DNA of 64,000 bases. Origin: Candidatus Woesearchaeota archaeon (GTDB taxonomy: Archaea; Nanobdellota; Nanobdellia; SCGC-AAA011-G17; PNOQ01). Position 1 is the stretch's first letter; each line of letters starts with the position of its first letter. The notes under the pieces were generated by a model, which saw nothing but the letters and a program-made list of their open reading frames with translations, had not been told where the DNA came from and did not search any database. Location: contig JABJPM010000030.1 of assembly GCA_018663865.1 (NCBI GenBank), positions 117 to 64,116 on the forward strand, read 5' to 3'. Made by a program: the position numbers and the translations under genes. Positions 9,852 through 31,602 of this stretch are shown here, one piece after another.

Positions 9852-10240
9852 AAGTTATACATAAAGCTGGAAAGAGAAAGACTGCAATAGCTCGAGCTAC
9901 AATGAAAGCAGGAAAGGGCGTTGTTAGAATTAATTATACTACTTTGGAAAATTATGAACCAGAAATAGCGAAGTTGAAAATTACTGAACCATTATTAATT
10001 GCAGGCAAAATGTCTGAAAAATATAATTTTCAAATTAATGTTCGTGGCGGGGGATGGCAATCTCAAGCTGAAGCTGCAAGATTGGCAATAGCCAGATGTT
10101 TAATGGAAGCAGACGGAAAGTTAAAAGACAAATTTTTAGAGTATGATAGAAATTTAGTTGTTGCAGATACTAGAAGAAAAGAAGTATGCAAACCTAATGA
10201 TTCTAAAGCAAGAGCTAAAAGACAAAAATCTTACAGATAG
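9848..10240 (+). CDS. rps9: 30S ribosomal protein S9 (uS9)
   Basis: 'GKRKTAIARATMKAGKG...INVRGGGWQSQAEAARLAIARCL...KRQKSYR'. Confidence 0.92.
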   Translation: MKVIHKAGKRKTAIARATMKAGKGVVRINYTTLENYEPEIAKLKITEPLLIAGKMSEKYNFQINVRGGGWQSQAEAARLAIARCLMEADGKLKDKFLEYDRNLVVADTRRKEVCKPNDSKARAKRQKSYR

Positions 10241-10244
10241 AAAA

Positions 10245-10442
10245 ATGATAATACCAATAAGATGTTTCAGTTGTGGAAAGCCAGTAGGGCATTTGTGGGA
10301 GAAATACTTGGAACAAATTAATGCTGGAGAAGATCCAAAAAAAGTTATGGATGATTTAGATATAGAAAGGTATTGCTGTAGGGCTTTGTTTATGGGCCAT
10401 GTAGATATGCTTGAAGATATTGCCCAATTCAAAAAGTTTTAG
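10245..10442 (+). CDS. rpoN: DNA-directed RNA polymerase subunit N (Rpo10). Trimmed from the longer track ORF 10158-10442
   Basis: 'MIIPIRCFSCGKPVG...YCCRALF' zinc-binding RpoN motif; follows rps9 as usual. Confidence 0.85.
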   Translation: MIIPIRCFSCGKPVGHLWEKYLEQINAGEDPKKVMDDLDIERYCCRALFMGHVDMLEDIAQFKKF

Positions 10443-10516
10443 TTATTATTAATTCTTTATTTAGATATCCTAATTTTATAGAAACACTTATATTTTTTTT
10501 TCATTATTATATATTT

Positions 10517-11089
10517 ATGAAGGTAGGTATATTAATTTTTATTTTAATTTTAATAAGCGGATGTCAGACTCCTCAATTGTCTAAACAAATATCGTATGAT
10601 GATAAAATTATTTTTGGAAATGCATTTAATACTCCTTGTGAAAAAGAAGAAACTAAATCTACTGCATTGATTCGTACTTATAAATTTAAATCTCGCGAAG
10701 AAATAACGACTAATTTTCCAATTATTCTTTCAGAGTTAGGTGCATCTGAAAAAATCATAAATGAATATGCATCTGAAAAAAATATTGTTGAAAAATTTCC
10801 AATGTTGTCTGAAAATTATGACGAATATCATAAATTGAAAGAAGAACAAAAAGGGTGCATACCTTGTGGATTTGCAGGTGGATGCGAGTTTGGAATAACT
10901 CATTGTGAAGACGGTTGTTGTGAATTAGATGATTTTGGATTAAATTGTGAGGAGTGTAGTTCTGGCAGTGGACAAAGATGTATTGGTTCTGTATGTACTA
11001 ATATTGATTATGATCCTTTACGCCCAGAAGAGGGGAGAATAACATTTACAATTGAATTTAATACATGGGATGAATTATTACCCTGGTGA
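10517..11089 (+). CDS. Putative lipoprotein with Cys-rich C-terminal domain
   Basis: Signal peptide with lipobox-like 'LISGC'; nine Cys in last 70 residues. Confidence 0.5.
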   Translation: MKVGILIFILILISGCQTPQLSKQISYDDKIIFGNAFNTPCEKEETKSTALIRTYKFKSREEITTNFPIILSELGASEKIINEYASEKNIVEKFPMLSENYDEYHKLKEEQKGCIPCGFAGGCEFGITHCEDGCCELDDFGLNCEECSSGSGQRCIGSVCTNIDYDPLRPEEGRITFTIEFNTWDELLPW

Positions 11090-11125
11090 TAAATTTTAAA
11101 AAGTCTAGTTCTTTTCTTTATTATT

Positions 11126-11530
11126 ATGAGAGATGATATTTGGTTAAATGATCGTTTAGATGTTGTTTGGGATAAAATTATTCCCGAGGTCGAGAGAAAA
11201 AATGAAGTCATTATCCGATTTATAGGAAAATGGAAAAACAAATTTGCCCACATAAAAATGCTTCGAAATGGTTCAACTGAGATTGCAATTAATTCATTGT
11301 TTAAATATCCGGATGTGCCAGATTTCATTTTAGAAACTACTATTGCCCATGAGTTAATACATTATATGCATGGCTTCCAAAGTCCGCATCCTCAATTATT
11401 TAGGCACCCTCATCGAGGGGGAATTGTAGATAAAGAAATAAAAAAAAGAGGATATGCATTTCTATTTGATTTAGAAAAAAGTTGGGTTAAGAATAATTGG
11501 TTTAGATTACATTCTATTTTAATTTCTTAG
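11126..11530 (+). CDS. SprT/DUF45-like zinc metallopeptidase
   Basis: HExxH motif 'AHELIHYMHG' with downstream His. Confidence 0.5.
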   Translation: MRDDIWLNDRLDVVWDKIIPEVERKNEVIIRFIGKWKNKFAHIKMLRNGSTEIAINSLFKYPDVPDFILETTIAHELIHYMHGFQSPHPQLFRHPHRGGIVDKEIKKRGYAFLFDLEKSWVKNNWFRLHSILIS

Positions 11531-11810
11531 GAATTGGATATCGGGTAAATTTTTTACAACTTAAACAAGCATAAATTACCTTATTGTTTTTCGTTCTAAC
11601 CCTTAAATTATCCTTATTAAAATAATTGTAACAATGTTTACAGAATTTTCTATTGTAATATCTTGGAAGTTTAAGATTAAACTTCATTCCTATTTTTCTA
11701 GCTGTACTAATATATTTATTTGAAAGTGATTGTGTTTTCGTTTTCTCAGCTTGTTCGAAAAGAATTTTAATTCTTTCTTTCGCAATTTCAATATTTTTTT
11801 GTTTTCTCAT
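11514..11810 (-). CDS. rnp4: RNase P protein subunit Rpp21/Rpr2
   Basis: 'IAKERIKILFEQAE...KLPRYYNRKFCKHC...RVRTKNNKVIYACLSCKK' matches the Rpp21 zinc-ribbon pattern. Confidence 0.8.
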   Translation of the reverse strand: MRKQKNIEIAKERIKILFEQAEKTKTQSLSNKYISTARKIGMKFNLKLPRYYNRKFCKHCYNYFNKDNLRVRTKNNKVIYACLSCKKFTRYPIPKKLK

Positions 11811-17734: not shown

Positions 17735-18226
17735 TTATCTAAATTTTTGTAGATTTAAGAATGATTTTGTCTTATTATACACATCATAGGTGTCATTTTT
17801 GATCTCTTTTTTATATACTGAGAACTTATTAGCCATAAAATACTTATCCGAGATGGCCCTTAAAAGCTTTAGGAATGGTTTTTTATCCCATCTTTCCTCA
17901 TAATCCGTGACCATCATTGATTTGAATTTCAAGTTAAGCTTCCCATTTGTTAGTTTTTCTGATTTTCCTTCAATTATTTCATAATCTTTTAGATCTATTT
18001 CGGCTTTTATCTCAATTTTTGTGTAATCGTCCAATTCTTTTGTTCCAGTCCATTGAATATTCACTGATTTTTTATCGCCAGTTGCTTTTTCATCATAGGA
18101 TGTTTCATAGAATGTGTATCTGTTTATATCAAACCAAGATTTTAAAGAATTGTATAAATCAATCATGTTAAATGGAGCATTATATTTTACTGATATTCCT
18201 TTGACAATCATGTCTTTTTCAGCCAT
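17735..18226 (-). CDS. Member A of a three-copy paralogous family of about 163-aa proteins, function unknown
   Basis: Shares length and motifs with 18259-18753 and 38262-38759 (GKLNLKF/NKLDLSL/GKLNFII; DYEERWDKK/KEKWGIS). Confidence 0.5.
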   Translation of the reverse strand: MAEKDMIVKGISVKYNAPFNMIDLYNSLKSWFDINRYTFYETSYDEKATGDKKSVNIQWTGTKELDDYTKIEIKAEIDLKDYEIIEGKSEKLTNGKLNLKFKSMMVTDYEERWDKKPFLKLLRAISDKYFMANKFSVYKKEIKNDTYDVYNKTKSFLNLQKFR

Positions 18227-18258: not shown

Positions 18259-18753
18259 TTATGCTCTTCGTAATTCTAAATATTCTTTTATTTCATCTGC
18301 CAAGGTATATGCCTTGGCACTTAACATGCTTTTACTCGCAGATATTCTTTCGTTTATTATGTAATCCTCATATAATTTTTTTATAAATTTTCTTTTTTTG
18401 AATTTGCCTTGCCTATCTGTGGTCACTTTGGCATCCATTTTTAAGGAAAGGTCTAATTTGTTTGTTCCAATTTTTTTACCATCAATTTCCACTTCAATGT
18501 CTTTCATTCCCAAGATATTAAATGTAATATTTATTGTATGCAAAAGGTATGGGCCCATGAATTTTTCTGCACACCATTTTATTTCAATTTGTTTTGAATC
18601 GCCCTTTATTCGTTCAACATAAACTTCTTCTTGGAATGTTTTTTTTTCATCACCGTAACCTTCCCAAGTCAACCATTCTTTAATTAAAGAATATAATTCT
18701 CCCATATCAAAGATGCCTTTATCTTTAATTGCAGTGGACATTACTTTTCCCAT
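18259..18753 (-). CDS. Member B of the same about 163-aa paralogous family
   Basis: Tandem to member A; same architecture. Confidence 0.5.
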   Translation of the reverse strand: MGKVMSTAIKDKGIFDMGELYSLIKEWLTWEGYGDEKKTFQEEVYVERIKGDSKQIEIKWCAEKFMGPYLLHTINITFNILGMKDIEVEIDGKKIGTNKLDLSLKMDAKVTTDRQGKFKKRKFIKKLYEDYIINERISASKSMLSAKAYTLADEIKEYLELRRA

Positions 18754-18777: not shown

Positions 18778-19707
18778 TTAAAGTTTTTGGTGATGCTTTT
18801 TTATTATTGTGTAACTTATATCATCATCTCTTTGAGATTTTAAAATATCTTGTTTCATTATTTGGCAAATCTCTTCTGAAGATTTTTCTGTATTTTCGGA
18901 TAGTATTTTTTCTAGATTATTTTCTAAATATATTTCGTGATCATACAGTCCGTCTGAATAAAGTAATAATATGTCTCCAGGGGATATATCTATTTCATTG
19001 ATTTCATAAGGTGGTTTAATGATATCTGATTCGGACCCAGTTTCGTCTGCCCCGGAATAAGAAGATAATGCAAACCCAATTGGCAATGCCGAATTGTGAG
19101 TTTTTTTAAGTCTCAACATCGTGTCATATTGTGCCGAATACAATATTGGTTCATGGGTGTTTGCAGCAATATATCTGAAATTTCCGCTTTCTGAAATCTC
19201 CCCATATAATAATGCTAAACTTGATTTGAAATCATCTGTACTTTTGAATCTGGTATTTAAATTTTCGAATAATGCTACTGGAACTTCGCCCCTTATTGGA
19301 AGATGGTCTAAAATTCCATTCAATAAAGATTGGTGAAATGCTGCATTTATTATTAGTGCTTCATCATTGTGTCCTGCAACATCAGTCATTGCAATTCCTG
19401 CTTTTTTCTTATGTTCCAATATTTTATTGGACAGATTTGATCTATAATTATTAATTATTTCTGTTTTAATATCTTCAGAAATATTTTCTAATGCTGGTAA
19501 AATTATGTGGTCTTTTCCGCCTTCTAAAACATTCTCCGACCATTTATCTAAAGGGTATCTATCTTTGAATGAAATCCAGGTAATTCTATCTCCGCCTTCC
19601 TCTAATAGAGGGATTACAGTTCCGTAAATATCTAAGTTATCCAATTCTGGAAGTTTCCCTGTTTTTGGAGCAACTTTTCTCGATATTTCTAAAGACATTG
19701 ATATCAT
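18778..19707 (-). CDS. PP2C/SpoIIE-family Ser/Thr protein phosphatase
   Basis: 'AMTDVAGHNDEA' (DxxGHG-like) and 'LLLYSDGLYD' metal-binding motifs. Confidence 0.65.
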   Translation of the reverse strand: MISMSLEISRKVAPKTGKLPELDNLDIYGTVIPLLEEGGDRITWISFKDRYPLDKWSENVLEGGKDHIILPALENISEDIKTEIINNYRSNLSNKILEHKKKAGIAMTDVAGHNDEALIINAAFHQSLLNGILDHLPIRGEVPVALFENLNTRFKSTDDFKSSLALLYGEISESGNFRYIAANTHEPILYSAQYDTMLRLKKTHNSALPIGFALSSYSGADETGSESDIIKPPYEINEIDISPGDILLLYSDGLYDHEIYLENNLEKILSENTEKSSEEICQIMKQDILKSQRDDDISYTIIKKHHQKL

Positions 19708-21345: not shown

Positions 21346-21558
21346 ATGAAATTAAATATTTTTAGATATGAGGGATATGTGGTTGTTGGAATTTTGTTAA
21401 CAGTATTCACCTTTGGCAAATTGATGGGATTATATGATATTAGCTCTGATTGGTTTTGGTTTTTGGCTGGTCTAGCTTTGGTATTTGAAGGTACGATTTC
21501 ATTAATTAAACAAAGAAGATTCGATAGGAAGTATAAAATTATTGAGCGCGAGTCCTAA
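21346..21558 (+). CDS. Small two-TM membrane protein
   Basis: Two hydrophobic segments; 70 aa. Confidence 0.3.
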   Translation: MKLNIFRYEGYVVVGILLTVFTFGKLMGLYDISSDWFWFLAGLALVFEGTISLIKQRRFDRKYKIIERES

Positions 21559-22174
21559 CTTTATTTGCAAATTCATCATAGGCATTTAGTTGTTTTTTAG
21601 TCATTCTTCTAAAATTTCCACGAAGAGTTATAGGCATGGTATTTAATATTCCAATATCATCATAGGTCGAATATCCCCTTTTACTTGCCAGTTTCCTTCT
21701 TATGTGCATGTAATTATAATGGTGTACATTTGCTGCTGCGGCTTTTATGTAATTCAAATGATCTATTGGCAATTTGTATTTTTTTATTTTTTTTAATGCC
21801 CTTCTTTCACAATCTAATTCTAAATCTCTACTTAAATCTGATGCTTTTTTTACTAAATCATCCGGATATTCTTTTCCATTCATCCAAGAATATAATACAT
21901 CTAATGAATCTATTTCATTATTCATCCAGGTGTCTGTGTATGCTGGACATTGTTCAATCCATTGATCCATGTGGGCGTGTTCATGAATTAGGATCGGAAT
22001 CCAAATCTCTTTTTCTTTATTTGTCGCAACAACAAGTTCTAGTGGTTCTTCCCCAAAATAGCCGTTTGCAGGAGATCCGTCTACATCAACATAAGTAGTA
22101 TTTCTTAGAATTAATTTAACATTGTGTTTTGATGTTTCTTCTTTGATATTTTCTAGATATTCTTCTAAATTCAA
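21539..22174 (-). CDS. Hypothetical HExxH-motif protein (putative metallohydrolase)
   Basis: 'ILIHEHAHMDQW' motif. Confidence 0.35.
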   Translation of the reverse strand: MNLEEYLENIKEETSKHNVKLILRNTTYVDVDGSPANGYFGEEPLELVVATNKEKEIWIPILIHEHAHMDQWIEQCPAYTDTWMNNEIDSLDVLYSWMNGKEYPDDLVKKASDLSRDLELDCERRALKKIKKYKLPIDHLNYIKAAAANVHHYNYMHIRRKLASKRGYSTYDDIGILNTMPITLRGNFRRMTKKQLNAYDEFANKVRTRAQ

Positions 22175-22215
22175 GTTATTAATTTATGTTTAATATATTT
22201 TATAAGAATTTAGAT

Positions 22216-22288
22216 AGTCCCGCCAGGATTTGAACCTGGGTCACTTGGACCAAAACCAAGTATGCTGGGCCTCTACACTACGGGACTT
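22216..22288 (-). tRNA. tRNA-Gln (anticodon TTG)
   Basis: Reverse complement AGTCCCGTAGTGTAGAGG...anticodon loop TTTTGGT...GGTTCAAATCCTGGCGGGACT; A1:U72 as in archaeal tRNA-Gln. Confidence 0.8.
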
Positions 22289-22396
22289 TCTATTTTAGTT
22301 TGTAAATATGTTGCTTTTAAAGTTTGTGTTTTAGTTAAAGTTTAGGAAAGGTTTTTAAGTTCAATATTTTTCTCTTTTATTATTGAGGGGATTATT

Positions 22397-23440
22397 GTGG
22401 GAAAACAATTTAAAACATTATATATTGTAAAAAAAAGAGATTTAGAAGATTCTCTTTCTGTCGAGGTGAATAATTTATATGCTGCCCATCATCGTGGACA
22501 TGATGTTCATGTGGTATATCCAAAAGATTTATTTGTAAAACACAATGAATTATATGCCATTACACGGCAACCAAATGCTGCCAAATTGTCTAGCATCGAA
22601 TCCTTTGTAGAGTATTTAAAAAATCCTCAATTTATGTTGGATAATAGAGTCCCAGTTAGAGATTTCGATATAATTTTTTCAAGAACTGTGCCAAAGACCC
22701 GGGAGGAATCTTTAAGTGATAATGCTGTGATAAATTATCTTCAATGTATGAAAACTTTATACCCCGGAATTGCATTTATTAATGATCCCGATGCGATTTC
22801 CAAGGCAGGTTCAAAGATATATGATTCGTTGGTACTTGGAGATACTTTGCCAGATACACATATTACAAAAGATGAGGTTCGAATAAAAGAGATTTTAAAA
22901 AAAGGTGATGAATGGATTGCTAAACCTGTTCATGGTTTGGGCGGTACAGATATTATAGGGATTAATAAAGATTATAAGAAAAATTTAGGTGCATTGATTC
23001 AATTATTGTTGAGAGATTTGTATTCTTCAACTGACGAACCTAGGCCATTTATTTTACAAGACAAATTGGAAGGACTTGAAAGGAGATTAGTACTTTTAAA
23101 TGGATCAGAGATAGTTGGATCATATGGAAAAATTTTAAGTGAGGATGATATTCGTGGCAATTCTGAGATGGGTGCAACCTATACTGATTATGATCCTACT
23201 GAAATCGATTTAAAACTGGTTTCAAAAATTGCACCAATTTTACAAAAAGATGGATTGTATTTAACTGCTGTTGATATTATTGGTCCAGAAAATAAAGCTA
23301 ATTTGAAGAATACAAAAATTTTAGAATTGAATGCGCGTTGCCCACAATGGAGCAAAGGAATAAAAGATTGGTCAAAAATTGGGGAGATCAGTGATAAAAT
23401 TATTCAATTCGCGGAGGATCTTCATGCAGAAAAAAATTAA
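22397..23440 (+). CDS. ATP-grasp ligase, RimK/glutathione-synthetase-like (copy 1; GTG start)
   Basis: 'IAKPVHGLGGTDII' phosphate-binding loop and 'ILELNARCP' C-terminal ATP-grasp motif. Confidence 0.65.
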   Translation: MGKQFKTLYIVKKRDLEDSLSVEVNNLYAAHHRGHDVHVVYPKDLFVKHNELYAITRQPNAAKLSSIESFVEYLKNPQFMLDNRVPVRDFDIIFSRTVPKTREESLSDNAVINYLQCMKTLYPGIAFINDPDAISKAGSKIYDSLVLGDTLPDTHITKDEVRIKEILKKGDEWIAKPVHGLGGTDIIGINKDYKKNLGALIQLLLRDLYSSTDEPRPFILQDKLEGLERRLVLLNGSEIVGSYGKILSEDDIRGNSEMGATYTDYDPTEIDLKLVSKIAPILQKDGLYLTAVDIIGPENKANLKNTKILELNARCPQWSKGIKDWSKIGEISDKIIQFAEDLHAEKN

Positions 23441-24410
23441 GGTTGGATTCATGTATTCTGAAAATGATGGAATTTCACCTCATGATTCTTTGGTTACTGG
23501 TTGGCCTACGGGAATAACCTATGCTTCTATTATTGAGGGAATTATGTCTGAAGGCGGGATGCCCTATAATTTAAAATGGGATGATGTTGGGGATAATCTT
23601 AAAGTTTCTAGAATGCACAATTTATCTAATCCAGAAATTATTCGTAATGCATCAATTGATTATTTAGACGTTTTATGTTTTATGGGGTTTGGAAATGTTT
23701 TGGAAGTACGAGAAAATGATAAAGATCTTTGCAAGGTTATTCGTAATTTAGAAGAAAGCGGAATTGTTCCAACTATTAATCCATCAAAAACTGTGCTCAA
23801 TGCTAGAGAAGGCAAAAAAAGATATCTTGTTGATTTATTTGAGAATGGAATTTCTGTTCCAGATACATATATTGTTGATTCTCTTTCAGGTGTAGAAGAT
23901 ATTTCTTCTGAATTGGTTGATAAATATGGGGGATATGTTACTAAACCTCTTAACGGGTTTGGAGGATTTGGAGTTGAAAAATTTCCTGGAGGTGATTTGG
24001 AAAGTGTGAAGGATATTCTTTCCAAAGATGGAGAGATTATTGTACAAGGTTATGTCAATAATATTCAGGAAACTGGGGAAAGATCTGTTTTCATATTTGG
24101 GGATGATATCAAGTATACAGTTCTTAAAAAATCTTCAGGATTCAAAACAAATGTCACTGGAAATATTTCTGGAGTTAGTCGATCGCTTGTTGACTGTACT
24201 TCTGCTGAGAGAAAATTGGCTTATGAAGCCAAGGAATTAATTGCACCTGAAGCATTAATCGCACGTGCAGATTTGATTGGAGATCGGGATAATCCATATG
24301 TGGGAGAATTAACATTATCCTCCATTGGACTACATACTGCGGTTTTTGGAAATGGAAGAAATTTATCAGTTGAAGGATATATTAAATTGATTGAAAATTT
24401 GGTAAGATAA
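23424..24410 (+). CDS. ATP-grasp ligase, RimK-like (copy 2; start trimmed to internal Met)
   Basis: 'VTKPLNGFGGFGVEKF' loop, 'IVQGYV', C-terminal ATP-grasp region. Confidence 0.6.
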   Translation: MQKKIKVGFMYSENDGISPHDSLVTGWPTGITYASIIEGIMSEGGMPYNLKWDDVGDNLKVSRMHNLSNPEIIRNASIDYLDVLCFMGFGNVLEVRENDKDLCKVIRNLEESGIVPTINPSKTVLNAREGKKRYLVDLFENGISVPDTYIVDSLSGVEDISSELVDKYGGYVTKPLNGFGGFGVEKFPGGDLESVKDILSKDGEIIVQGYVNNIQETGERSVFIFGDDIKYTVLKKSSGFKTNVTGNISGVSRSLVDCTSAERKLAYEAKELIAPEALIARADLIGDRDNPYVGELTLSSIGLHTAVFGNGRNLSVEGYIKLIENLVR

Positions 24411-24413
24411 ACA

Positions 24414-25226
24414 ATGTTCTATAATACTATTACTGGGGATGTGGAGGATTCTAATAATTCATTTTCATTTGAAAGTGTTCCAGATTCCAAAGTTTTGATT
24501 GTTGCCCCGCATGGCGGGGAGTATGTGCCTCCGTGCGCTTTCCCCTTTTTAGATTATACTCATCAATTATTTCCTTTGGAAATCGATCAAGCCTCTAATG
24601 AAATTTATAGGGCGAATGGTTATTCTTTTGCAGGAACGTCCATCCATCGCCATGTTATTAATCTGAATAAACGAAAATATAAATTGGAGGAATTCAATGT
24701 TTTTCGAGATGTGGGATTTGATGGTTCACCATTATATTTGGAAGATATGCCAGATTCTATTTCAGAAAGATTGGTCAATCTTTATTATAATCCTTTTTTG
24801 AATTTTGTTAAGAGCGAATTATTCCGAATTCGTGAGAGATTTGATGATGCCTTTTTATTGAATGCCCACACAATGGAATCAAAAATTCCAGAAGTAAATA
24901 AATTTTTGGAACATCGTAAACGCCCAGATTTTTGTTTGGGAACAAATAATATGCATTCAATTGATTATAATTTATTAACTGAATTTCATAGCTCTCTTGA
25001 ATCTCACGCAAGAGATTATTTCGGATCTGATGTGAGTATTGCTATTGATCGCCCATTTGTTGGTCGCGTGGGTTTAACTAGATCATTTGGATGTCCGAAC
25101 GAGAATTTAAACGCTTTATTATTGGAAATTAATCAGGGACTTTATTTTTCAGAAAATGGATCCGATTCAGAAGTTGTTTCTGCATTGAATTCTATTGTTC
25201 AGAATACATTGGATGATATTTTTTAA
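24414..25226 (+). CDS. N-formylglutamate amidohydrolase (FGase)/M14-like zinc hydrolase family protein
   Basis: N-terminal 'VLIVAPHGGEYVPP' resembles FGase family 'PHsG..vP'; 270 aa. Confidence 0.5.
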   Translation: MFYNTITGDVEDSNNSFSFESVPDSKVLIVAPHGGEYVPPCAFPFLDYTHQLFPLEIDQASNEIYRANGYSFAGTSIHRHVINLNKRKYKLEEFNVFRDVGFDGSPLYLEDMPDSISERLVNLYYNPFLNFVKSELFRIRERFDDAFLLNAHTMESKIPEVNKFLEHRKRPDFCLGTNNMHSIDYNLLTEFHSSLESHARDYFGSDVSIAIDRPFVGRVGLTRSFGCPNENLNALLLEINQGLYFSENGSDSEVVSALNSIVQNTLDDIF

Positions 25227-25831
25227 TTTTTTCTTTTATATCTTCCACGTTTGTTAACTTTCTCTAATCTTTGAATGGTTTCTTTATAATTAATTGATTT
25301 TTTGTAACCTTTTAGTGTGTTTTTTATTAATTCTTCGTCGTGTTTATAATGTTTTGATTCAAAAGCTTGTTGTAATAATTTTAAATCTGTTGCTTTGTCT
25401 TCTAATTTATGTGAAATTTTTCCTAATCCAAAATCTATGAAATAAACTTTATTATCTTTTAGAATCATATTAGAAGTTGTTAAATCTCCATGAATTATAT
25501 CATTATCATGCATTAATGCAATTTGTTCTCCAATTAATTTTGCTACTTTTTCTCTTTTATTTTTATTGTATGTACCTAATGTTGTTTTTAATAAATCTCC
25601 TTTTAGATATTCCATCACTATTTTAGAATTATTTTCTTCAACTTTTATTGGATTTGGAACATTAATTAGATCTTTAGCTTTTGTTAGAAGTTTGAATTCT
25701 CTTCTTGTTGGATATTTTGTTTTATTTTTATCAATTACTTTATGCCTGTAACCCTTTGTTATTCTTTCTTTAATTAAATTATTATCTTCTTTATAGAGAA
25801 TTGCTTCTGCACCTTTATGAAGGATTTTCAT
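25223..25831 (-). CDS. bud32: KEOPS-complex Bud32/PRPK small protein kinase
   Basis: 'IVMEYLKGDLL', 'IIHGDLTTSNMIL', 'YFIDFGLG', 'EDKATDLKLL' match Bud32. Confidence 0.85.
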   Translation of the reverse strand: MKILHKGAEAILYKEDNNLIKERITKGYRHKVIDKNKTKYPTRREFKLLTKAKDLINVPNPIKVEENNSKIVMEYLKGDLLKTTLGTYNKNKREKVAKLIGEQIALMHDNDIIHGDLTTSNMILKDNKVYFIDFGLGKISHKLEDKATDLKLLQQAFESKHYKHDEELIKNTLKGYKKSINYKETIQRLEKVNKRGRYKRKN

Positions 25832-28953: not shown

Positions 28954-29214
28954 ATGGGAATTTGCGATCATATTAATGGATGTGCTTATGAGCGTAAATC
29001 TGAGGATTATATATGTCAAAACATTTCTAATGCTTCTAATTGTAATTTATATAGAAAACTTTCTAAGTTGCGTTATAAAGGTCTCAAGTATGGTGTGCGT
29101 CGAAGAAGTCCGGAGCTTTCTAAGCTTATTCATGCAATTGAGATAAAGCAGCCTACTCAAGCAGAAGTTGAAGCATCTGTATTTGCTCTTAAACCTTGGT
29201 ACAGAATCATTTAA
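28954..29214 (+). CDS. Small Cys-containing protein, tandem paralog 1 (MGICD...)
   Basis: Shares N-terminus 'MGICD..ER.AY.RK..D..CQNI.N.NLYRKL' and upstream region with 29274-29510. Confidence 0.5.
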   Translation: MGICDHINGCAYERKSEDYICQNISNASNCNLYRKLSKLRYKGLKYGVRRRSPELSKLIHAIEIKQPTQAEVEASVFALKPWYRII

Positions 29215-29273: not shown

Positions 29274-29510
29274 ATGGGAATTTGCGATTATCTTGAGAGA
29301 TATGCTTATAGTCGTAAAAATAGGGATATTATGTGTCAAAATATTCCTAATTATAATTTATATCGAAAATTGAAAGTATATTCTGAGTCAAAATTGGATT
29401 TTCTTGTTTCTAGAAGTAATGTGAGGCCGCTAACTCAAAAGGAAGTTGATGCGGCAAATTATAAAACTAGTTATCGTAAATTTTTTGGAAAATCTAATCG
29501 TCCTCGTTAA
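29274..29510 (+). CDS. Small Cys-containing protein, tandem paralog 2
   Basis: Paralog of 28954-29214. Confidence 0.5.
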   Translation: MGICDYLERYAYSRKNRDIMCQNIPNYNLYRKLKVYSESKLDFLVSRSNVRPLTQKEVDAANYKTSYRKFFGKSNRPR

Positions 29511-29787: not shown

Positions 29788-31602
29788 ATGAAATGGTTTT
29801 TTATCTTGTTGATATTTGTATTAGTTTTATTTTTAGTTAATTTTGTTAGTTCTGATGATTGTGGCATTGATACCTGTGGTGGATTTTCGCAACCAGATAT
29901 TTTTGATCAAACTAGTATGAGTTATAATTATTGCATTCGTGATTCAGATTGTGTTCAGGAATTTAGGATAACCAACTTGGGAAGTCCAGTTAATTTTGAG
30001 AATTGGAGAGTGCTTGGTTCTAGCCATAGAAGTGAATTAGATATTGATTATCCTTGTAATTGGAATCCTACCGGCGGATATACTTTTTCTGCTGTTGATG
30101 GTTGTATGCCTCCTTCTGGAGGTGAATGTGTTTCACCATTCTATTTAAATGTGGATAGTTCATCTGGTGTAATTACCCTTCCTGCAGACACTTATCCTGT
30201 GGGAGTTGTAGGGGTTAGTTATGGCGGTGCATGTTCGGGCGGTGGATGGGCAGAAGGTTTTAATTGGTATAATTTAAATCCTTTTGCAGATGATTTAGCT
30301 TTTTCTGATCCTGGTTGCGTTGCCGATGAACCTTGTGAAATTTCAATTGCTAGTCAAGATGAAGGAAGAAAGTTTTATGGTGATGTGGCTGTGAGTGGAA
30401 CTGATGATTGTTCAAATTCGCTTTACCTCGATCAAAGTGAGATAACTAAAGAATACTCAGATGGGGCGATTAGGTTTACAATCCCTGCAAATACCTTTTG
30501 TTCTGGCGATATTGAATTGAAAATTTATGATTTAATAGATCATATTAATATTGAAGATCAAAGTGGTGGATGGGTTAGTTTTGTTATGGATGAAGGAGAA
30601 GGGGTTATTGATCCAATTGTTATTGAAGTTTCACCCAATCAATGTTATATTGATCAGAGTTGCGATATTACGATTACTGTTGTTGAAGGAACTATTGATG
30701 TTGATGTTCATTCAATTGAATTTTTCAAAGGTGATGATAGTTTTTGGGAATTAATTGCACTTGATAGTGGGGATGTCATAATTAATGGAAATGTAATTTC
30801 TTATACTCTGCCGCCGAATCTGGTTAATGTAGGGGAGATGAATGTTATATATTCTATATTAAGTACACTTGATATTTTAGATTTGAAAACTATAACGATG
30901 ATTGAATCTCAATCGTCTACATGTATTCCTGATGGCTGTAATGATATTTGTCCGAGTTATTGTACTGCTTCAGATGATCCTGATTGTGGTGCCACTGGTT
31001 GTTGTGGTGATTTTTCTATTGGATTGGGAGAGGTTTGCGAACTTGGTCATGATGGTTCTGCCGGAACCTCTGATGATGATTTGGGTGGAGAAAATTGTAC
31101 TAGTATTCCTGGTGGATTTGATGGTGGAACTCTAGGTTGTTTAGACGATTGTACGTTTGATATTGGTGGATGTTATAATAATGATTTTGTTTGTGGAGAT
31201 AATATTATTCAAACTCCAAATGATGATGGTTTAAATGAAACTTGCGATGGAAGTGCAAATTTTTCTGAAACGTGTATTACTGAAGGATTTGATGATGGAA
31301 CTTTAAGTTGTTTAACTGATTGTACTGGTTTTGATCCAAGTGATTGTAGTTCTCCTGCCCCTGTTGTCGGGCCGGATGAATACATAGTATATACTTCTTG
31401 TGAAGAAGATGGGGATGGAAATCAGTATGGGGTTTCGAATTGGACTTTGTATGCGGGAAATGGTTCCCAATTAAATAGTAGTAGTGCTTTATGTATTTTA
31501 TATAGTTCTGAAGTTCCGTTTTCTGGAATTATAGGAATTCTATTATTTCTTGTGGTGATATTTGGATTCTATTATAGAGAAAATTACCAACCTAAACTTT
31601 GA
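29788..31602 (+). CDS. Large Cys/Asp-rich secreted surface protein with N-terminal signal peptide and C-terminal TM anchor
   Basis: Signal peptide 'FFILLIFVLVLFLVNFVSS'; DDxG/Cys-rich repeats; C-terminal 'IIGILLFLVVIFGFYY'. Last seven codons lie inside the 66-bp repeat. Confidence 0.6.
   Translation: MKWFFILLIFVLVLFLVNFVSSDDCGIDTCGGFSQPDIFDQTSMSYNYCIRDSDCVQEFRITNLGSPVNFENWRVLGSSHRSELDIDYPCNWNPTGGYTFSAVDGCMPPSGGECVSPFYLNVDSSSGVITLPADTYPVGVVGVSYGGACSGGGWAEGFNWYNLNPFADDLAFSDPGCVADEPCEISIASQDEGRKFYGDVAVSGTDDCSNSLYLDQSEITKEYSDGAIRFTIPANTFCSGDIELKIYDLIDHINIEDQSGGWVSFVMDEGEGVIDPIVIEVSPNQCYIDQSCDITITVVEGTIDVDVHSIEFFKGDDSFWELIALDSGDVIINGNVISYTLPPNLVNVGEMNVIYSILSTLDILDLKTITMIESQSSTCIPDGCNDICPSYCTASDDPDCGATGCCGDFSIGLGEVCELGHDGSAGTSDDDLGGENCTSIPGGFDGGTLGCLDDCTFDIGGCYNNDFVCGDNIIQTPNDDGLNETCDGSANFSETCITEGFDDGTLSCLTDCTGFDPSDCSSPAPVVGPDEYIVYTSCEEDGDGNQYGVSNWTLYAGNGSQLNSSSALCILYSSEVPFSGIIGILLFLVVIFGFYYRENYQPKL

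What the first reader, a model, noticed from the sequence alone, without database searches (positions are those of the whole stretch)
22397..25226. Two tandem RimK-like ATP-grasp ligases plus an FGase/M14-like zinc hydrolase: candidate peptide-ligase/tagging system
Two adjacent ATP-grasp enzymes carry the motifs KPVHGLGGTDII / LELNARCP and KPLNGFGGFGVE. They are followed, 3 nt later, by a protein with an N-formylglutamate-amidohydrolase-like N-terminus (VLIVAPHGGEYVPP). Comparative-genomics work on amidoligases is reported to describe ATP-grasp plus FGase/M14-type hydrolase pairings, predicted to make and trim peptide tags or small peptide metabolites. Two distinct ligases suggest two successive ligation steps, for example a gamma-glutamyl-type modification of a protein C-terminus or a dipeptide metabolite. 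The Bud32 kinase lies convergently downstream. A reduced symbiont genome retaining this triad implies an important function.
Basis: partly seen in the sequence, partly recalled or inferred. Interest (0 to 1): 0.65.

Follow-up and report, generated by a model that had tools for sequence, protein, structure and literature searches.

The report
Two-ligase plus amidohydrolase operon, Woesearchaeota
A small archaeal symbiont carries a compact operon of two different ATP-driven amide-bond-forming enzymes and a zinc-type amide-cutting enzyme; it probably builds and trims a short peptide, but it is rare, mobile among relatives, and its product is unknown.

Summary
Window 22397-25226 encodes three co-directional, overlapping or abutting genes. 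AG1 is a GshB-like ATP-grasp ligase. AG2 is a second, very divergent GshB/RimK-class ATP-grasp ligase whose real start is 23424. FG is an FGase-family amidohydrolase. None reaches the curated cut-off of any named enzyme (GshB, RimK, LysX, MptN, HutG).

The family is tiny. I found it only in Woesearchaeota (DPANN) assemblies: 4 cluster representatives at E<1e-30 among 1.84 billion. AG1-AG2 is the invariant core, adjacent in every locus of the clade. FG follows in about half of the contexts. In one context an Amidohydro_2 gene sits there instead, and in another no hydrolase is adjacent.

AG1's nearest relatives are bacterial 'PRK12458' GshB-like ligases. These are adjacent to, or fused with, FGase and MATCAP/QEGLA carboxypeptidase domains. 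That gives independent support for a functional ligase-FGase link.

All three genes are under purifying selection. However, they lie in a ~3.7 kb block whose synonymous divergence is far deeper than its flanks, so it is an exchanged accessory cassette, not a conserved core function.

Best reading: stepwise ATP-dependent assembly of a short, probably glutamate-type peptide, with a dedicated hydrolase. Whether the acceptor is a metabolite or a protein tail is unresolved. It is a new variant of a predicted but uncharacterised kind.

The parts
22288..22396 (+). Intergenic leader and presumed promoter of the operon. It has a purine-rich stretch plus the TATA-like TTTTTAAG (22352-22359) and a Shine-Dalgarno-like GAGGGG (22385-22390), 6 nt before the GTG start.
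   Evidence: Read directly from the sequence. The promoter assignment is inference only. The AG1 start agrees with the public gene call P0180.
22397..23440 (+). AG1: GshB-like ATP-grasp ligase, 347 aa, with GSH-S_N and GSH-S_ATP domains. The catalytic set is conserved: K176, R229/R230, R253-G-N255, D293 and E310-x-N312.
   Evidence: Pfam. NCBIfam PRK12458 132 bits against a cut-off of 408, and GshB 111 against 272. Profile alignment to E. coli GshB 1GSA residues 23-300, E 2.6e-20. Invariant columns. dN/dS 0.05-0.22.
23424..24410 (+). AG2: second, highly divergent three-domain ATP-grasp ligase of the GshB/RimK/DcsG/LysX class, 328 aa. It overlaps AG1 by 17 nt. The Mg-binding E-x-N motif is replaced by an invariant E295-L-T297.
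   Evidence: Searches give weak GshB/RimK/MptN/DcsG hits, all below cut-off. Alignments A2/A4. AF2 model pLDDT 88. Foldseek best hits are DcsG, RimK, GshB and LysX at TM 0.63-0.72 and 15-20% identity. hhalign against AG1 gives only 60% probability over the core. dN/dS 0.19-0.31.
24414..25226 (+). FG: FGase-family (PF05013) metal amidohydrolase, 270 aa. Family motifs are conserved: PHGG (H33), PLEIDQ, HRH (78-80), NAHxME (H152) and LEINQ (E238). It is not a HutG equivalog.
   Evidence: Pfam 90 bits. TIGR02017 hutG 60 bits against a cut-off of 279. 28% identity to Burkholderia HutG over residues 24-247. Invariant columns. dN/dS 0.18-0.27. The structure model failed (pLDDT 40).
22215..22287 (-). 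tRNA-Gln(UUG), directly upstream of the operon. It is conserved at this position in the syntenic relatives and marks the interior of the variable block.
   Evidence: ARAGORN. Present at the same place in L001, L007 and L009.
21539..22174 (-). MP211: 211-aa protein of unknown function with an invariant H-x-H-x-H...Q-W-x-E motif. It is divergently oriented. It lies in the same deeply diverged block as the operon but occurs only in the syntenic context, so membership in the system is doubtful.
   Evidence: Weak DUF6782 hit below cut-off. Alignment A3 shows the 'E' of the apparent HExxH is Leu in L007. dS 1.44 like the cassette. No PDB or PADLOC match.

Best explanation
AG1, AG2 and FG form one operon that makes and turns over a short amide-linked product.

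Shown:
- AG1 and AG2 are two non-redundant GshB/RimK-class ATP-grasp carboxylate-amine ligases with conserved ATP-binding and catalytic residues.
- They are always encoded together, with overlapping reading frames.
- FG is an FGase-family metal amidohydrolase.
- All three genes are under purifying selection.

Inferred:
- Each ligase activates a carboxylate as an acyl-phosphate and adds one kind of amino acid, so the pair acts in sequence, or as a heteromer, to put two different amide bonds on one acceptor.
- By analogy with GshB, MptN/CofF, RimK and MyfA/MyfB, the added residues are most likely glutamate-type or small amino acids, and the product is a free di/tripeptide-like metabolite or a glutamylated small molecule.
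- FG's only characterised relative cleaves N-formyl-L-glutamate. FG therefore most likely hydrolyses the terminal N-acyl-amino-acid bond of the same product, for turnover, length control or salvage.

The cassette is an accessory, horizontally exchanged trait of some marine Woesearchaeota. It is not a core DPANN function.
For: Domain assignments and conserved catalytic residues.

Operon structure: 17-nt overlap and 3-nt gap.

AG1-AG2 adjacency holds in every locus of the clade, across five different genomic contexts.

The ligase-FGase link is independently recurrent:
- A flavobacterial PRK12458 ligase is followed by an FGase::MATCAP fusion.
- An FGase::GshB-like single-polypeptide fusion is followed by MATCAP.
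- A MATCAP gene sits next to a GshB-like ligase.

Points favouring a small-molecule product:
- AG1 keeps the GshB N-terminal substrate domain.
- A relative sits in a cluster of an aminomutase plus three ATP-grasp ligases.
- In L008 and L011 the alternative partner is an Amidohydro_2 hydrolase.
- No carrier or precursor gene is conserved with the pair, and no acidic-tailed small protein is in the window.
- Sequential action of two ATP-grasp glutamate ligases on a cofactor has a precedent in MyfA/MyfB (PMC8141765).

Purifying selection: dN/dS 0.05-0.31.
Against: - No substrate is identified, and nothing here distinguishes a free acceptor from a protein C-terminus.
- RimK has the same three-domain architecture as GshB yet modifies a protein.
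- FG is absent next to the pair in three contexts, so it is not obligatory, or it lies elsewhere in those genomes.
- The window FG is closer to HutG than to the FGase domains of the bacterial cassettes, so the archaeal pairing may have arisen independently.
- AG2 lacks the canonical Asn of the E-x-N metal site and could be a non-catalytic partner.
- The pair is repeatedly co-directional with ribosomal protein genes, which fits the protein-tagging rival better.
Confidence: 0.45

Rival explanations
1. This is a protein C-terminal tagging cycle resembling RimK/RimB or TTL/MATCAP. AG1 and AG2 add amino acids, for example glutamates or a two-residue tail, to the C-terminus of a cellular protein. 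The target would plausibly be a ribosomal protein, and FG would be the eraser that trims the tail.
For: - AG2 is structurally as close to RimK, including the RimK-RpsF complex 5zk6, as to GshB.
- Both ligases hit the rimK_fam model weakly.
- In three of five independent contexts the pair lies in tight co-directional arrays with ribosomal protein genes: eno-AG1-AG2-uS2, uS2-Amidohydro_2-AG1-AG2 and AG1-AG2-FG-eL33-uL16. In the window it lies about 1.5 kb from uS15/eS1. My rough post hoc estimate of the chance of this is about 0.01-0.02.
- The bacterial sister cassettes carry MATCAP-family carboxypeptidases. Their characterised eukaryotic members remove C-terminal Tyr/Glu and polyglutamate from tubulin tails (PMC10499314).
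Against: - Known protein taggers of this class need one ligase, not two different ones.
- No common candidate target is conserved next to the pair.
- Archaea lack bS6, the RimK substrate (established knowledge).
- The only characterised FGase acts on a small molecule.
- DPANN genomes are dense in translation genes, so adjacency is weak evidence, and contexts B and C may not be independent.
- No MATCAP homologue is in the window.
Confidence: 0.3
2. The pair synthesises a homo- or hetero-poly-amino-acid, such as poly-glutamate or a cyanophycin-like storage or envelope polymer, and FG acts as the depolymerase or exo-hydrolase.
For: - RimK and MyfB make polyglutamate in vitro (PMC8141765; the PDB 5zct title).
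- FGase is, to my recollection, grouped with the M14-like zinc hydrolases, a group I recall also containing poly-gamma-glutamate hydrolases. This rests on my own knowledge and was not tested.
- MATCAP relatives deglutamylate long chains.
Against: - None of the three proteins shows an obvious signal peptide or membrane anchor on reading the translations (no prediction tool was run), and no export gene is conserved alongside them.
- Two dissimilar ligases argue for two different bonds rather than processive polymerisation.
- No primer or carrier is evident.
Confidence: 0.1
3. This is ordinary primary metabolism that has been mis-read. AG1 would be a true glutathione synthase (with AG2 replacing GshA), or the ligases would be LysX/ArgX or MptN/CofF-type enzymes, and FG would be HutG of histidine catabolism.
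For: GshB, MptN and HutG are the best-scoring named models. JGI labels the ligases 'glutathione synthase/RimK-type ligase-like' and NCBI labels FG 'N-formylglutamate amidohydrolase'.
Against: - All curated cut-offs are missed by a factor of 2.5 or more: GshB 111 against 272; PRK12458 132 against 408; MptN 64 and 43 against 350; LysX 13-22 against 276; rimK_fam 38-43 against 143; hutG 60 against 279.
- In the exhaustive search the AG1 clade is separated from all GshB-like proteins by a drop from about 315 to 131 bits.
- No LysW-like carrier is present.
- The distribution is far too narrow for a primary pathway.
Confidence: 0.05
4. There is no functional system. The three genes are merely neighbours in a compact genome, and FG works independently of the ligases.
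For: FG is missing next to the pair in three contexts. FG diverges on its own schedule: it is 34% identical in L007 where AG1 is 69%.
Against: - The order AG1-AG2-FG, with overlaps or gaps of a few nt, is kept in two unrelated genomic contexts, A and D.
- FGase-ligase fusions and adjacencies recur in bacteria.
Confidence: 0.1

Closest known systems
Bacterial 'PRK12458' GshB-like ligase + FGase + MATCAP/QEGLA (TIGR02421, ex-DUF1704) cassettes, e.g. in Flavobacteriales; uncharacterised
   Same: - These are the nearest sequence relatives of AG1 outside its own clade.
- A GshB-like ATP-grasp ligase is physically coupled to an FGase-family hydrolase, either by adjacency or by fusion.
   Different: - The bacterial cassettes have one ligase and a MATCAP-family HExxH carboxypeptidase. 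The archaeal operon has a second ATP-grasp ligase and no MATCAP.
- AG1 scores 132 bits against the subfamily cut-off of 408.
- The window FG is not detectably closer to the bacterial cassette FGase domains than to HutG.
E. coli glutathione synthetase GshB (PDB 1GSA)
   Same: Same domain architecture (GSH-S_N plus ATP-grasp). Aligned over GshB residues 23-300 with conserved counterparts of K160, R210, R225/R233-G-N, D273 and E281-x-N283.
   Different: - Scores 99-111 bits against equivalog cut-offs of 272-299.
- No GshA partner was seen.
- The hairpin between the metal ligands is longer, and the C-terminal motif is ELNxRCPQW rather than EINVTSPTC.
- AG1 is paired with a second ATP-grasp ligase.
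RimK / RimB (RimABK) ribosomal protein S6 glutamylation-trimming system
   Same: An ATP-grasp ligase of the same class is paired with a dedicated hydrolase that reverses its product. AG2 superposes on RimK as well as on anything else.
   Different: - The hydrolase is a retropepsin in that system and an FGase here.
- That system has a single ligase.
- The substrate bS6 does not exist in archaea.
- rimK_fam scores are 38-43 against a cut-off of 143.
MyfA/MyfB (methylofuran) and MptN/CofF (tetrahydrosarcinapterin, F420) glutamate ligases
   Same: GshB/RimK-class ATP-grasp enzymes that glutamylate small-molecule cofactors. MyfA and MyfB act sequentially (PMC8141765). MptN is among the best NCBIfam hits for both AG1 and AG2.
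   Different: - Scores are far below cut-off (64 and 43 against 350).
- No methanogenic or methylotrophic cofactor pathway is expected in DPANN (my own knowledge, not tested).
- Those systems have no associated hydrolase.
HutG N-formylglutamate amidohydrolase
   Same: Same Pfam family. Full-length alignment at about 28% identity with the family motifs conserved.
   Different: Scores 60 bits against the equivalog cut-off of 279. It is operonic with ligases rather than with hut genes.

Membership tests
ATP-grasp superfamily (GshB/RimK class) | Three-domain ATP-grasp fold with conserved ATP-binding lysines, a Gly-rich loop, catalytic Arg and the D/E...E-x-N metal site | tested here: met
   AG1: alignment to 1GSA with all counterparts conserved. 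AG2: AF2 model pLDDT 88, Foldseek probability 1.0 to DcsG/RimK/GshB/LysX. Its residues are conserved except Asn->Thr297.
Glutathione synthase GshB (TIGR01380 / PRK05246 equivalogs) | Score at or above the curated equivalog cut-off | tested here: not met
   AG1 scores 98.9 against 299 and 111.5 against 272. AG2 scores 32.7 and 30.3.
Glutathione synthase GshB | A gamma-glutamylcysteine-forming partner (GshA) in the genome | not testable with these tools
   Only 64 kb of the genome is available, and no such gene was noticed beside the operon.
PRK12458 GshB-like subfamily with FGase/MATCAP partners | Score at or above the subfamily cut-off (408 bits) | tested here: not met
   AG1 scores 132 bits. 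The true members P0018 and P0030 score 427 and 440.
PRK12458 GshB-like subfamily with FGase/MATCAP partners | FGase-family hydrolase adjacent to or fused with the ligase | tested here: met
   In the window FG starts 3 nt after AG2. Bacterial counterparts are shown.
PRK12458 GshB-like subfamily with FGase/MATCAP partners | MATCAP/QEGLA (PF08014, TIGR02421) carboxypeptidase in the cassette | tested here: not met
   phmmer and tblastn with two MATCAP domains found no homologue in the window. MP211 is not MATCAP-like.
RimK family alpha-L-glutamate ligases (TIGR00768) | Score at or above the cut-off (143.4 bits) | tested here: not met
   AG1 scores 37.8 and AG2 scores 43.4.
LysX/ArgX-LysW amino-group carrier system | LysX equivalog score, and a small LysW-like carrier with an acidic C-terminal tail | tested here: not met
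   LysX_arch scores 13.4 and 21.9 against a cut-off of 275.6. The only small ORF in the window with an acidic tail is a hydrophobic, probably spurious one. The rest of the genome was not available.
MptN / CofF cofactor glutamate ligases | Equivalog score (MptN cut-off 350) | tested here: not met
   AG1 scores 64 and AG2 scores 42.6.
FGase family (PF05013) | Pfam gathering score and conserved family motifs (N-terminal PHxG, central H-S/T-M, C-terminal E-I-x-Q/R) | tested here: met
   90.4 bits against 28.9, covering profile positions 2-218 of 219. H33, H152 and E238 are invariant in 7 sequences. The fold itself could not be confirmed because the model failed.
HutG N-formylglutamate deformylase (TIGR02017) | Equivalog score (278.75 bits) | tested here: not met
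   60 bits.
Known anti-phage defence systems (PADLOC) | Any model hit for the cassette proteins | tested here: not met
   0 families for AG1, AG2, FG and MP211.

The most novel reading that the evidence does not exclude
The AG1-AG2 pair is an archaeal writer, and FG or Amidohydro_2 the eraser, of a templated-independent C-terminal peptide tail on a ribosomal or other translation protein. This would be a DPANN analogue of RimK/RimB and of the eukaryotic tubulin TTL/MATCAP cycle, using two different ligases to add a defined two-residue or mixed tail. The bacterial GshB-like/FGase/MATCAP cassettes would then represent the prokaryotic ancestor-type of ligase/carboxypeptidase tail-editing cycles.
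Probability: 0.15. Interest if true: 0.75.

Novelty: new variant of a known kind. Interest (0 to 1): 0.45.

Why it matters
ATP-grasp amidoligases paired with dedicated hydrolases are a recurring but largely uncharacterised theme in prokaryotes. RimK/RimB is one of the few studied examples.

This operon defines a small, sharply separated archaeal clade. It has two dissimilar ligases, one carrying an unusual E-x-T metal site, and a swappable hydrolase partner.

Working out its product would have two consequences. It would assign function to the much more widespread bacterial GshB-like/FGase/MATCAP(QEGLA) cassettes. It would also show whether DPANN symbionts make a specialised peptide metabolite or edit protein tails.

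The value is moderate. The components are recognisable, the distribution is narrow, and no computation available here can name the substrate.

Tried and rejected
1. MP211 (21539-22174) as a miniature MATCAP/zincin partner: rejected. The apparent HExxH is really H-x-H-x-H, with the Glu replaced by Leu in L007. The only hit is a sub-threshold DUF6782 match, with no PDB hit. It occurs only in the syntenic context.

2. FG structure prediction: the model was useless (pLDDT 40 from a 7-sequence alignment), so no fold search was run on it.

3. The afdb50 fold library was not available.

4. Iyer et al. 2009 (PMC3268129) is not held.

5. tblastn of FG against plasmids found only HutG genes at about 27% identity, with no informative context.

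6. The genome contigs and metagenome-contig scans found only 6 and 3 loci, all Woesearchaeota-type.

7. AG2 as a recent duplicate of AG1: rejected. hhalign gives 60% probability over 107 columns only.

8. Defence-system membership: no PADLOC hit.

9. A LysW-like or acidic-tail carrier in the window: none found.

10. Testing whether the window FG shares ancestry with the FGase domains of the bacterial cassettes: no support, as it is closer to HutG.
Full report
**1. What is in the sequence**

Window 22397-25226 holds three co-directional ORFs.

- AG1 is 22397-23440 (347 aa). It uses a GTG start 6 nt after a GAGGGG Shine-Dalgarno-like site.
- AG2 was listed as 23379-24410. Its real start is the ATG at 23424, preceded by GGAGG and overlapping AG1 by 17 nt. 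The 328-aa product is identical to a publicly called protein, 'hypothetical protein HON86_03145 [Candidatus Woesearchaeota archaeon]'.
- FG is 24414-25226 (270 aa). It starts 3 nt after the AG2 stop.

A tRNA-Gln lies just upstream on the minus strand at 22215-22287. The convergent downstream gene is a bona fide Bud32 (TIGR03724, 185 bits against a cut-off of 125). G+C is about 30% throughout.

**2. Family assignments**

Pfam:
- AG1 hits GSH-S_ATP (1.3e-20) plus GSH-S_N.
- AG2 hits GSH-S_ATP (7.5e-8).
- FG hits FGase (2.4e-25) over nearly the whole profile.

NCBIfam shows that no curated equivalog is reached.

| Model | AG1 (bits) | AG2 (bits) | Cut-off |
|---|---|---|---|
| PRK12458 | 132 | – | 408 |
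| GshB (PRK05246) | 111 | – | 272 |
| MptN | 64 | 43 | 350 |
| rimK_fam | 38 | 43 | 143 |
| LysX | 13 | 22 | 276 |

FG scores 60 bits against the hutG cut-off of 279.

A profile of AG1 aligns with E. coli GshB (1GSA) over residues 23-300. Counterparts of K160, R210, the R-G-N loop, D273 and E281-x-N283 are conserved.

AG2 keeps the lysines, the Gly-rich loop, E219-R220, R253, D283 and E295. However, the canonical Asn of E-x-N is an invariant Thr (T297) in all 12 sequences.

The AF2 model of AG2 is confident (pLDDT 88). It is a full three-domain ATP-grasp enzyme, roughly equidistant from DcsG, RimK, GshB and LysX (TM 0.63-0.72, 15-20% identity). AG1 and AG2 are not recent duplicates (hhalign 60% probability over the core only).

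FG conserves the family's PHGG, H-T-M and E-I-N-Q motifs. It aligns at 28% identity with a Burkholderia HutG. Its structure model failed (pLDDT 40).

**3. Distribution**

The word-indexed search of 5.8 billion clusters found only 8 (AG1), 7 (FG) and 15 (AG2) clusters.

An exhaustive HMMER search of 1.84 billion representatives with the AG1 profile found only four representatives at E<1e-30. After a distant member at 315 bits and a 125-aa fragment (162 bits), scores fall to 131 bits and below, into generic GshB-like proteins.

All named genome hits are Candidatus Woesearchaeota or 'archaeon' MAGs. The metagenome scan added three loci. The module is therefore a rare, lineage-restricted trait.

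**4. Conserved anatomy across contexts**

AG1 and AG2 are adjacent, with overlapping frames, in every locus of the clade. They occur in five different neighbourhoods:

- **A:** uS15/eS1 ... tRNA-Gln-AG1-AG2-FG-(Bud32). Seen in the window, L001, L002, L007, L009 and the P0171 contig.
- **B:** enolase-AG1-AG2-uS2. Seen in L003, L004, L010, L018 and L020.
- **C:** uS2-Amidohydro_2-AG1-AG2-CorA. Seen in L008.
- **D:** AG1-AG2-FG-eL33-uL16. Seen in L005, L006, L019 and L026-28.
- **F:** NTP_transferase-AG1-AG2. Seen in L025.

FG follows the pair in contexts A and D only. In C an Amidohydro_2 gene overlaps the AG1 start. The same Amidohydro_2-ligase pairing recurs with the distant AG1-like protein P0016, which has no AG2 beside it.

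The ligase pair is therefore the core, and the hydrolase is a variable accessory.

**5. Link between ligase and FGase**

The nearest outgroup of AG1 is the bacterial PRK12458 GshB-like subfamily. I found three arrangements:

- In Flavobacteriales contigs this ligase is followed, with overlap, by a 662-aa FGase::MATCAP fusion. The MATCAP part is NCBIfam TIGR02421 'QEGLA' (376 bits).
- In another contig a MATCAP gene precedes the ligase.
- In a third, the ligase is itself fused to an N-terminal FGase domain (P0060, 624 aa) and is followed by MATCAP.

These domain shuffles are Rosetta-stone evidence that GshB-like ligases and FGase-family hydrolases act on the same thing.

Characterised eukaryotic MATCAP/TMCP enzymes are carboxypeptidases. 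They remove C-terminal Tyr/Glu and shorten polyglutamate chains (PMC10499314).

The window has no MATCAP homologue. The window FG is closer to HutG than to the cassette FGase domains. The archaeal pairing may therefore be an independent recruitment of the same enzyme type.

Other GshB-like relatives sit in multi-ligase clusters. One example is a KamA-like aminomutase plus three ATP-grasp ligases.

**6. Evolutionary behaviour**

Against the closest syntenic relative (L001), nucleotide identity is 0.80-0.91 in the flanks. It drops sharply to 0.58-0.66 between about 21560 and 25226, which spans MP211, tRNA-Gln, AG1, AG2 and FG.

Synonymous divergence is 0.49-0.97 for the flanking genes but 1.35-1.75 for the four block genes. 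The block therefore has a deeper history than its surroundings, rather than merely faster protein evolution.

Outside the window's own lineage (the P0171 contig, context A), the most similar cassette with DNA in hand (AG1 82%, AG2 70%, FG 59%) lies in a different genomic context, D. Gene content between the flanks also varies: an extra 189-aa gene in L001, and DUF885 and 216-aa genes in the P0171 contig.

All three genes are under purifying selection, with dN/dS 0.05-0.31. In the least saturated comparison the values are 0.05 for AG1 and 0.19 for AG2.

This is a functional but exchangeable accessory cassette. That undercuts the argument that retention in a reduced genome signals an essential role.

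**7. Mechanism**

*Shown:*
- Two distinct, conserved ATP-grasp ligases that are translationally coupled.
- An FGase-family hydrolase.
- A recurrent ligase-FGase association.

*Inferred:* the two ligases make two different amide bonds on one acceptor through acyl-phosphate intermediates, and FG hydrolyses a terminal N-acyl-amino-acid (probably glutamate-type) bond of that product.

I favour a small-molecule product (0.45) for these reasons:
- AG1 keeps the GshB substrate domain.
- Two-ligase pathways are typical of small peptides and cofactor tails, as with MyfA/MyfB.
- The hydrolase partners (FGase, Amidohydro_2) are small-molecule enzyme families.
- No carrier or precursor gene travels with the pair, and none with an acidic tail is in the window.

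The main rival is RimK-like protein-tail editing (0.3). It is kept alive by two observations: the repeated co-directional embedding among ribosomal protein genes in contexts B, C and D, and the MATCAP partners of the bacterial relatives.

Polymer synthesis, mis-read primary metabolism and mere adjacency are less likely. Primary-metabolism identities fail every membership test.

**8. Verdict**

The system is a new two-ligase variant of the uncharacterised family of GshB-like ligase/FGase cassettes. To my recollection such cassettes were predicted in Iyer et al. 2009, but I could not verify this. Its product and acceptor are unknown. Interest is moderate.

Noticed in passing
window 21560-25230 compared with L001: A sharply bounded block (MP211, tRNA-Gln, AG1, AG2, FG) has 58-66% nucleotide identity and dS 1.35-1.75. 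The flanks have 80-91% identity and dS 0.49-0.97. Gene content between the flanks also differs among relatives: an extra 189-aa gene in one, and DUF885 and 216-aa genes in another. It looks like a recombination or replacement hot spot next to tRNA-Gln.
   Followed up: yes
window 21539-22174 (-): MP211 is a 211-aa protein with an invariant H-x-H-x-H...QW.E motif, superficially HExxH. It has only a sub-threshold DUF6782 hit and no structural relative. Its 3' end overlaps the convergent 70-aa membrane-protein gene (21346-21558) by 20 nt. That membrane-protein gene is 98.5% identical in L001, whereas MP211 is only 52% identical.
   Followed up: partly
L018 3715-7624; L008 4685-8026; L006 5983-9640: The AG1-AG2 pair is embedded co-directionally among ribosomal protein genes in three different arrangements. 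It is inserted between enolase and uS2 (a pair I recall as conserved neighbours in archaea; not tested). It lies downstream of uS2. It lies upstream of eL33-uL16. This may hint at a translation-related role, or it may be chance in dense genomes.
   Followed up: partly
L013 6001-9010; L029 265-4055; L012 3-2122: Bacterial (Flavobacteriales and other) cassettes combine a GshB-like ligase, FGase and MATCAP/QEGLA domains in three fusion or adjacency permutations. MATCAP is the family of the eukaryotic tubulin detyrosinase/deglutamylase. A prokaryotic ligase + carboxypeptidase cassette of this kind seems uncharacterised in the literature I could search.
   Followed up: partly
L022 1339-5486: An operon of a lysine-2,3-aminomutase-like radical SAM enzyme, a Ddl-like ATP-grasp, a 328-aa divergent ATP-grasp and a GshB-like ligase. 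It is probably a beta-amino-acid peptide pathway.
   Followed up: no
L008 5297-6004 and L011 7304-8008: A 234-235-aa Amidohydro_2/TatD-like protein (N-terminus MIIDCH[AT]HIGYEND) overlaps the start of AG1-type genes in two distant lineages. It appears to be an alternative hydrolase partner to FGase.
   Followed up: partly
window 17735-18226 (-) and 18259-18753 (-): Tandem paralogues (163 and 164 aa, 26% identical, E 1.6e-11) with no family hit. They are conserved next to a SpoIIE/PP2C-type phosphatase gene (18778-19707) in relatives.
   Followed up: partly
window 28954-29214 (+) and 29274-29510 (+): Two small tandem paralogues (86 and 78 aa, 36% identical), both starting MGICD and Cys/Arg/Lys-rich. 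Their function is unknown.
   Followed up: partly
window 29788-31602 (+): A 604-aa protein with an N-terminal signal-like segment, many Cys/Asp/Gly-rich repeats and a C-terminal membrane anchor. It is probably a DPANN surface or adhesion protein. L008 has a similar 536-aa protein (10043-11653).
   Followed up: no
AG2, window 24306-24314 (E295-L-T297): The near-universal ATP-grasp E-x-N magnesium-binding motif is E-x-T in every AG2 sequence, while the rest of the catalytic set is kept. This may signal altered metal use or a non-canonical role.
   Followed up: partly
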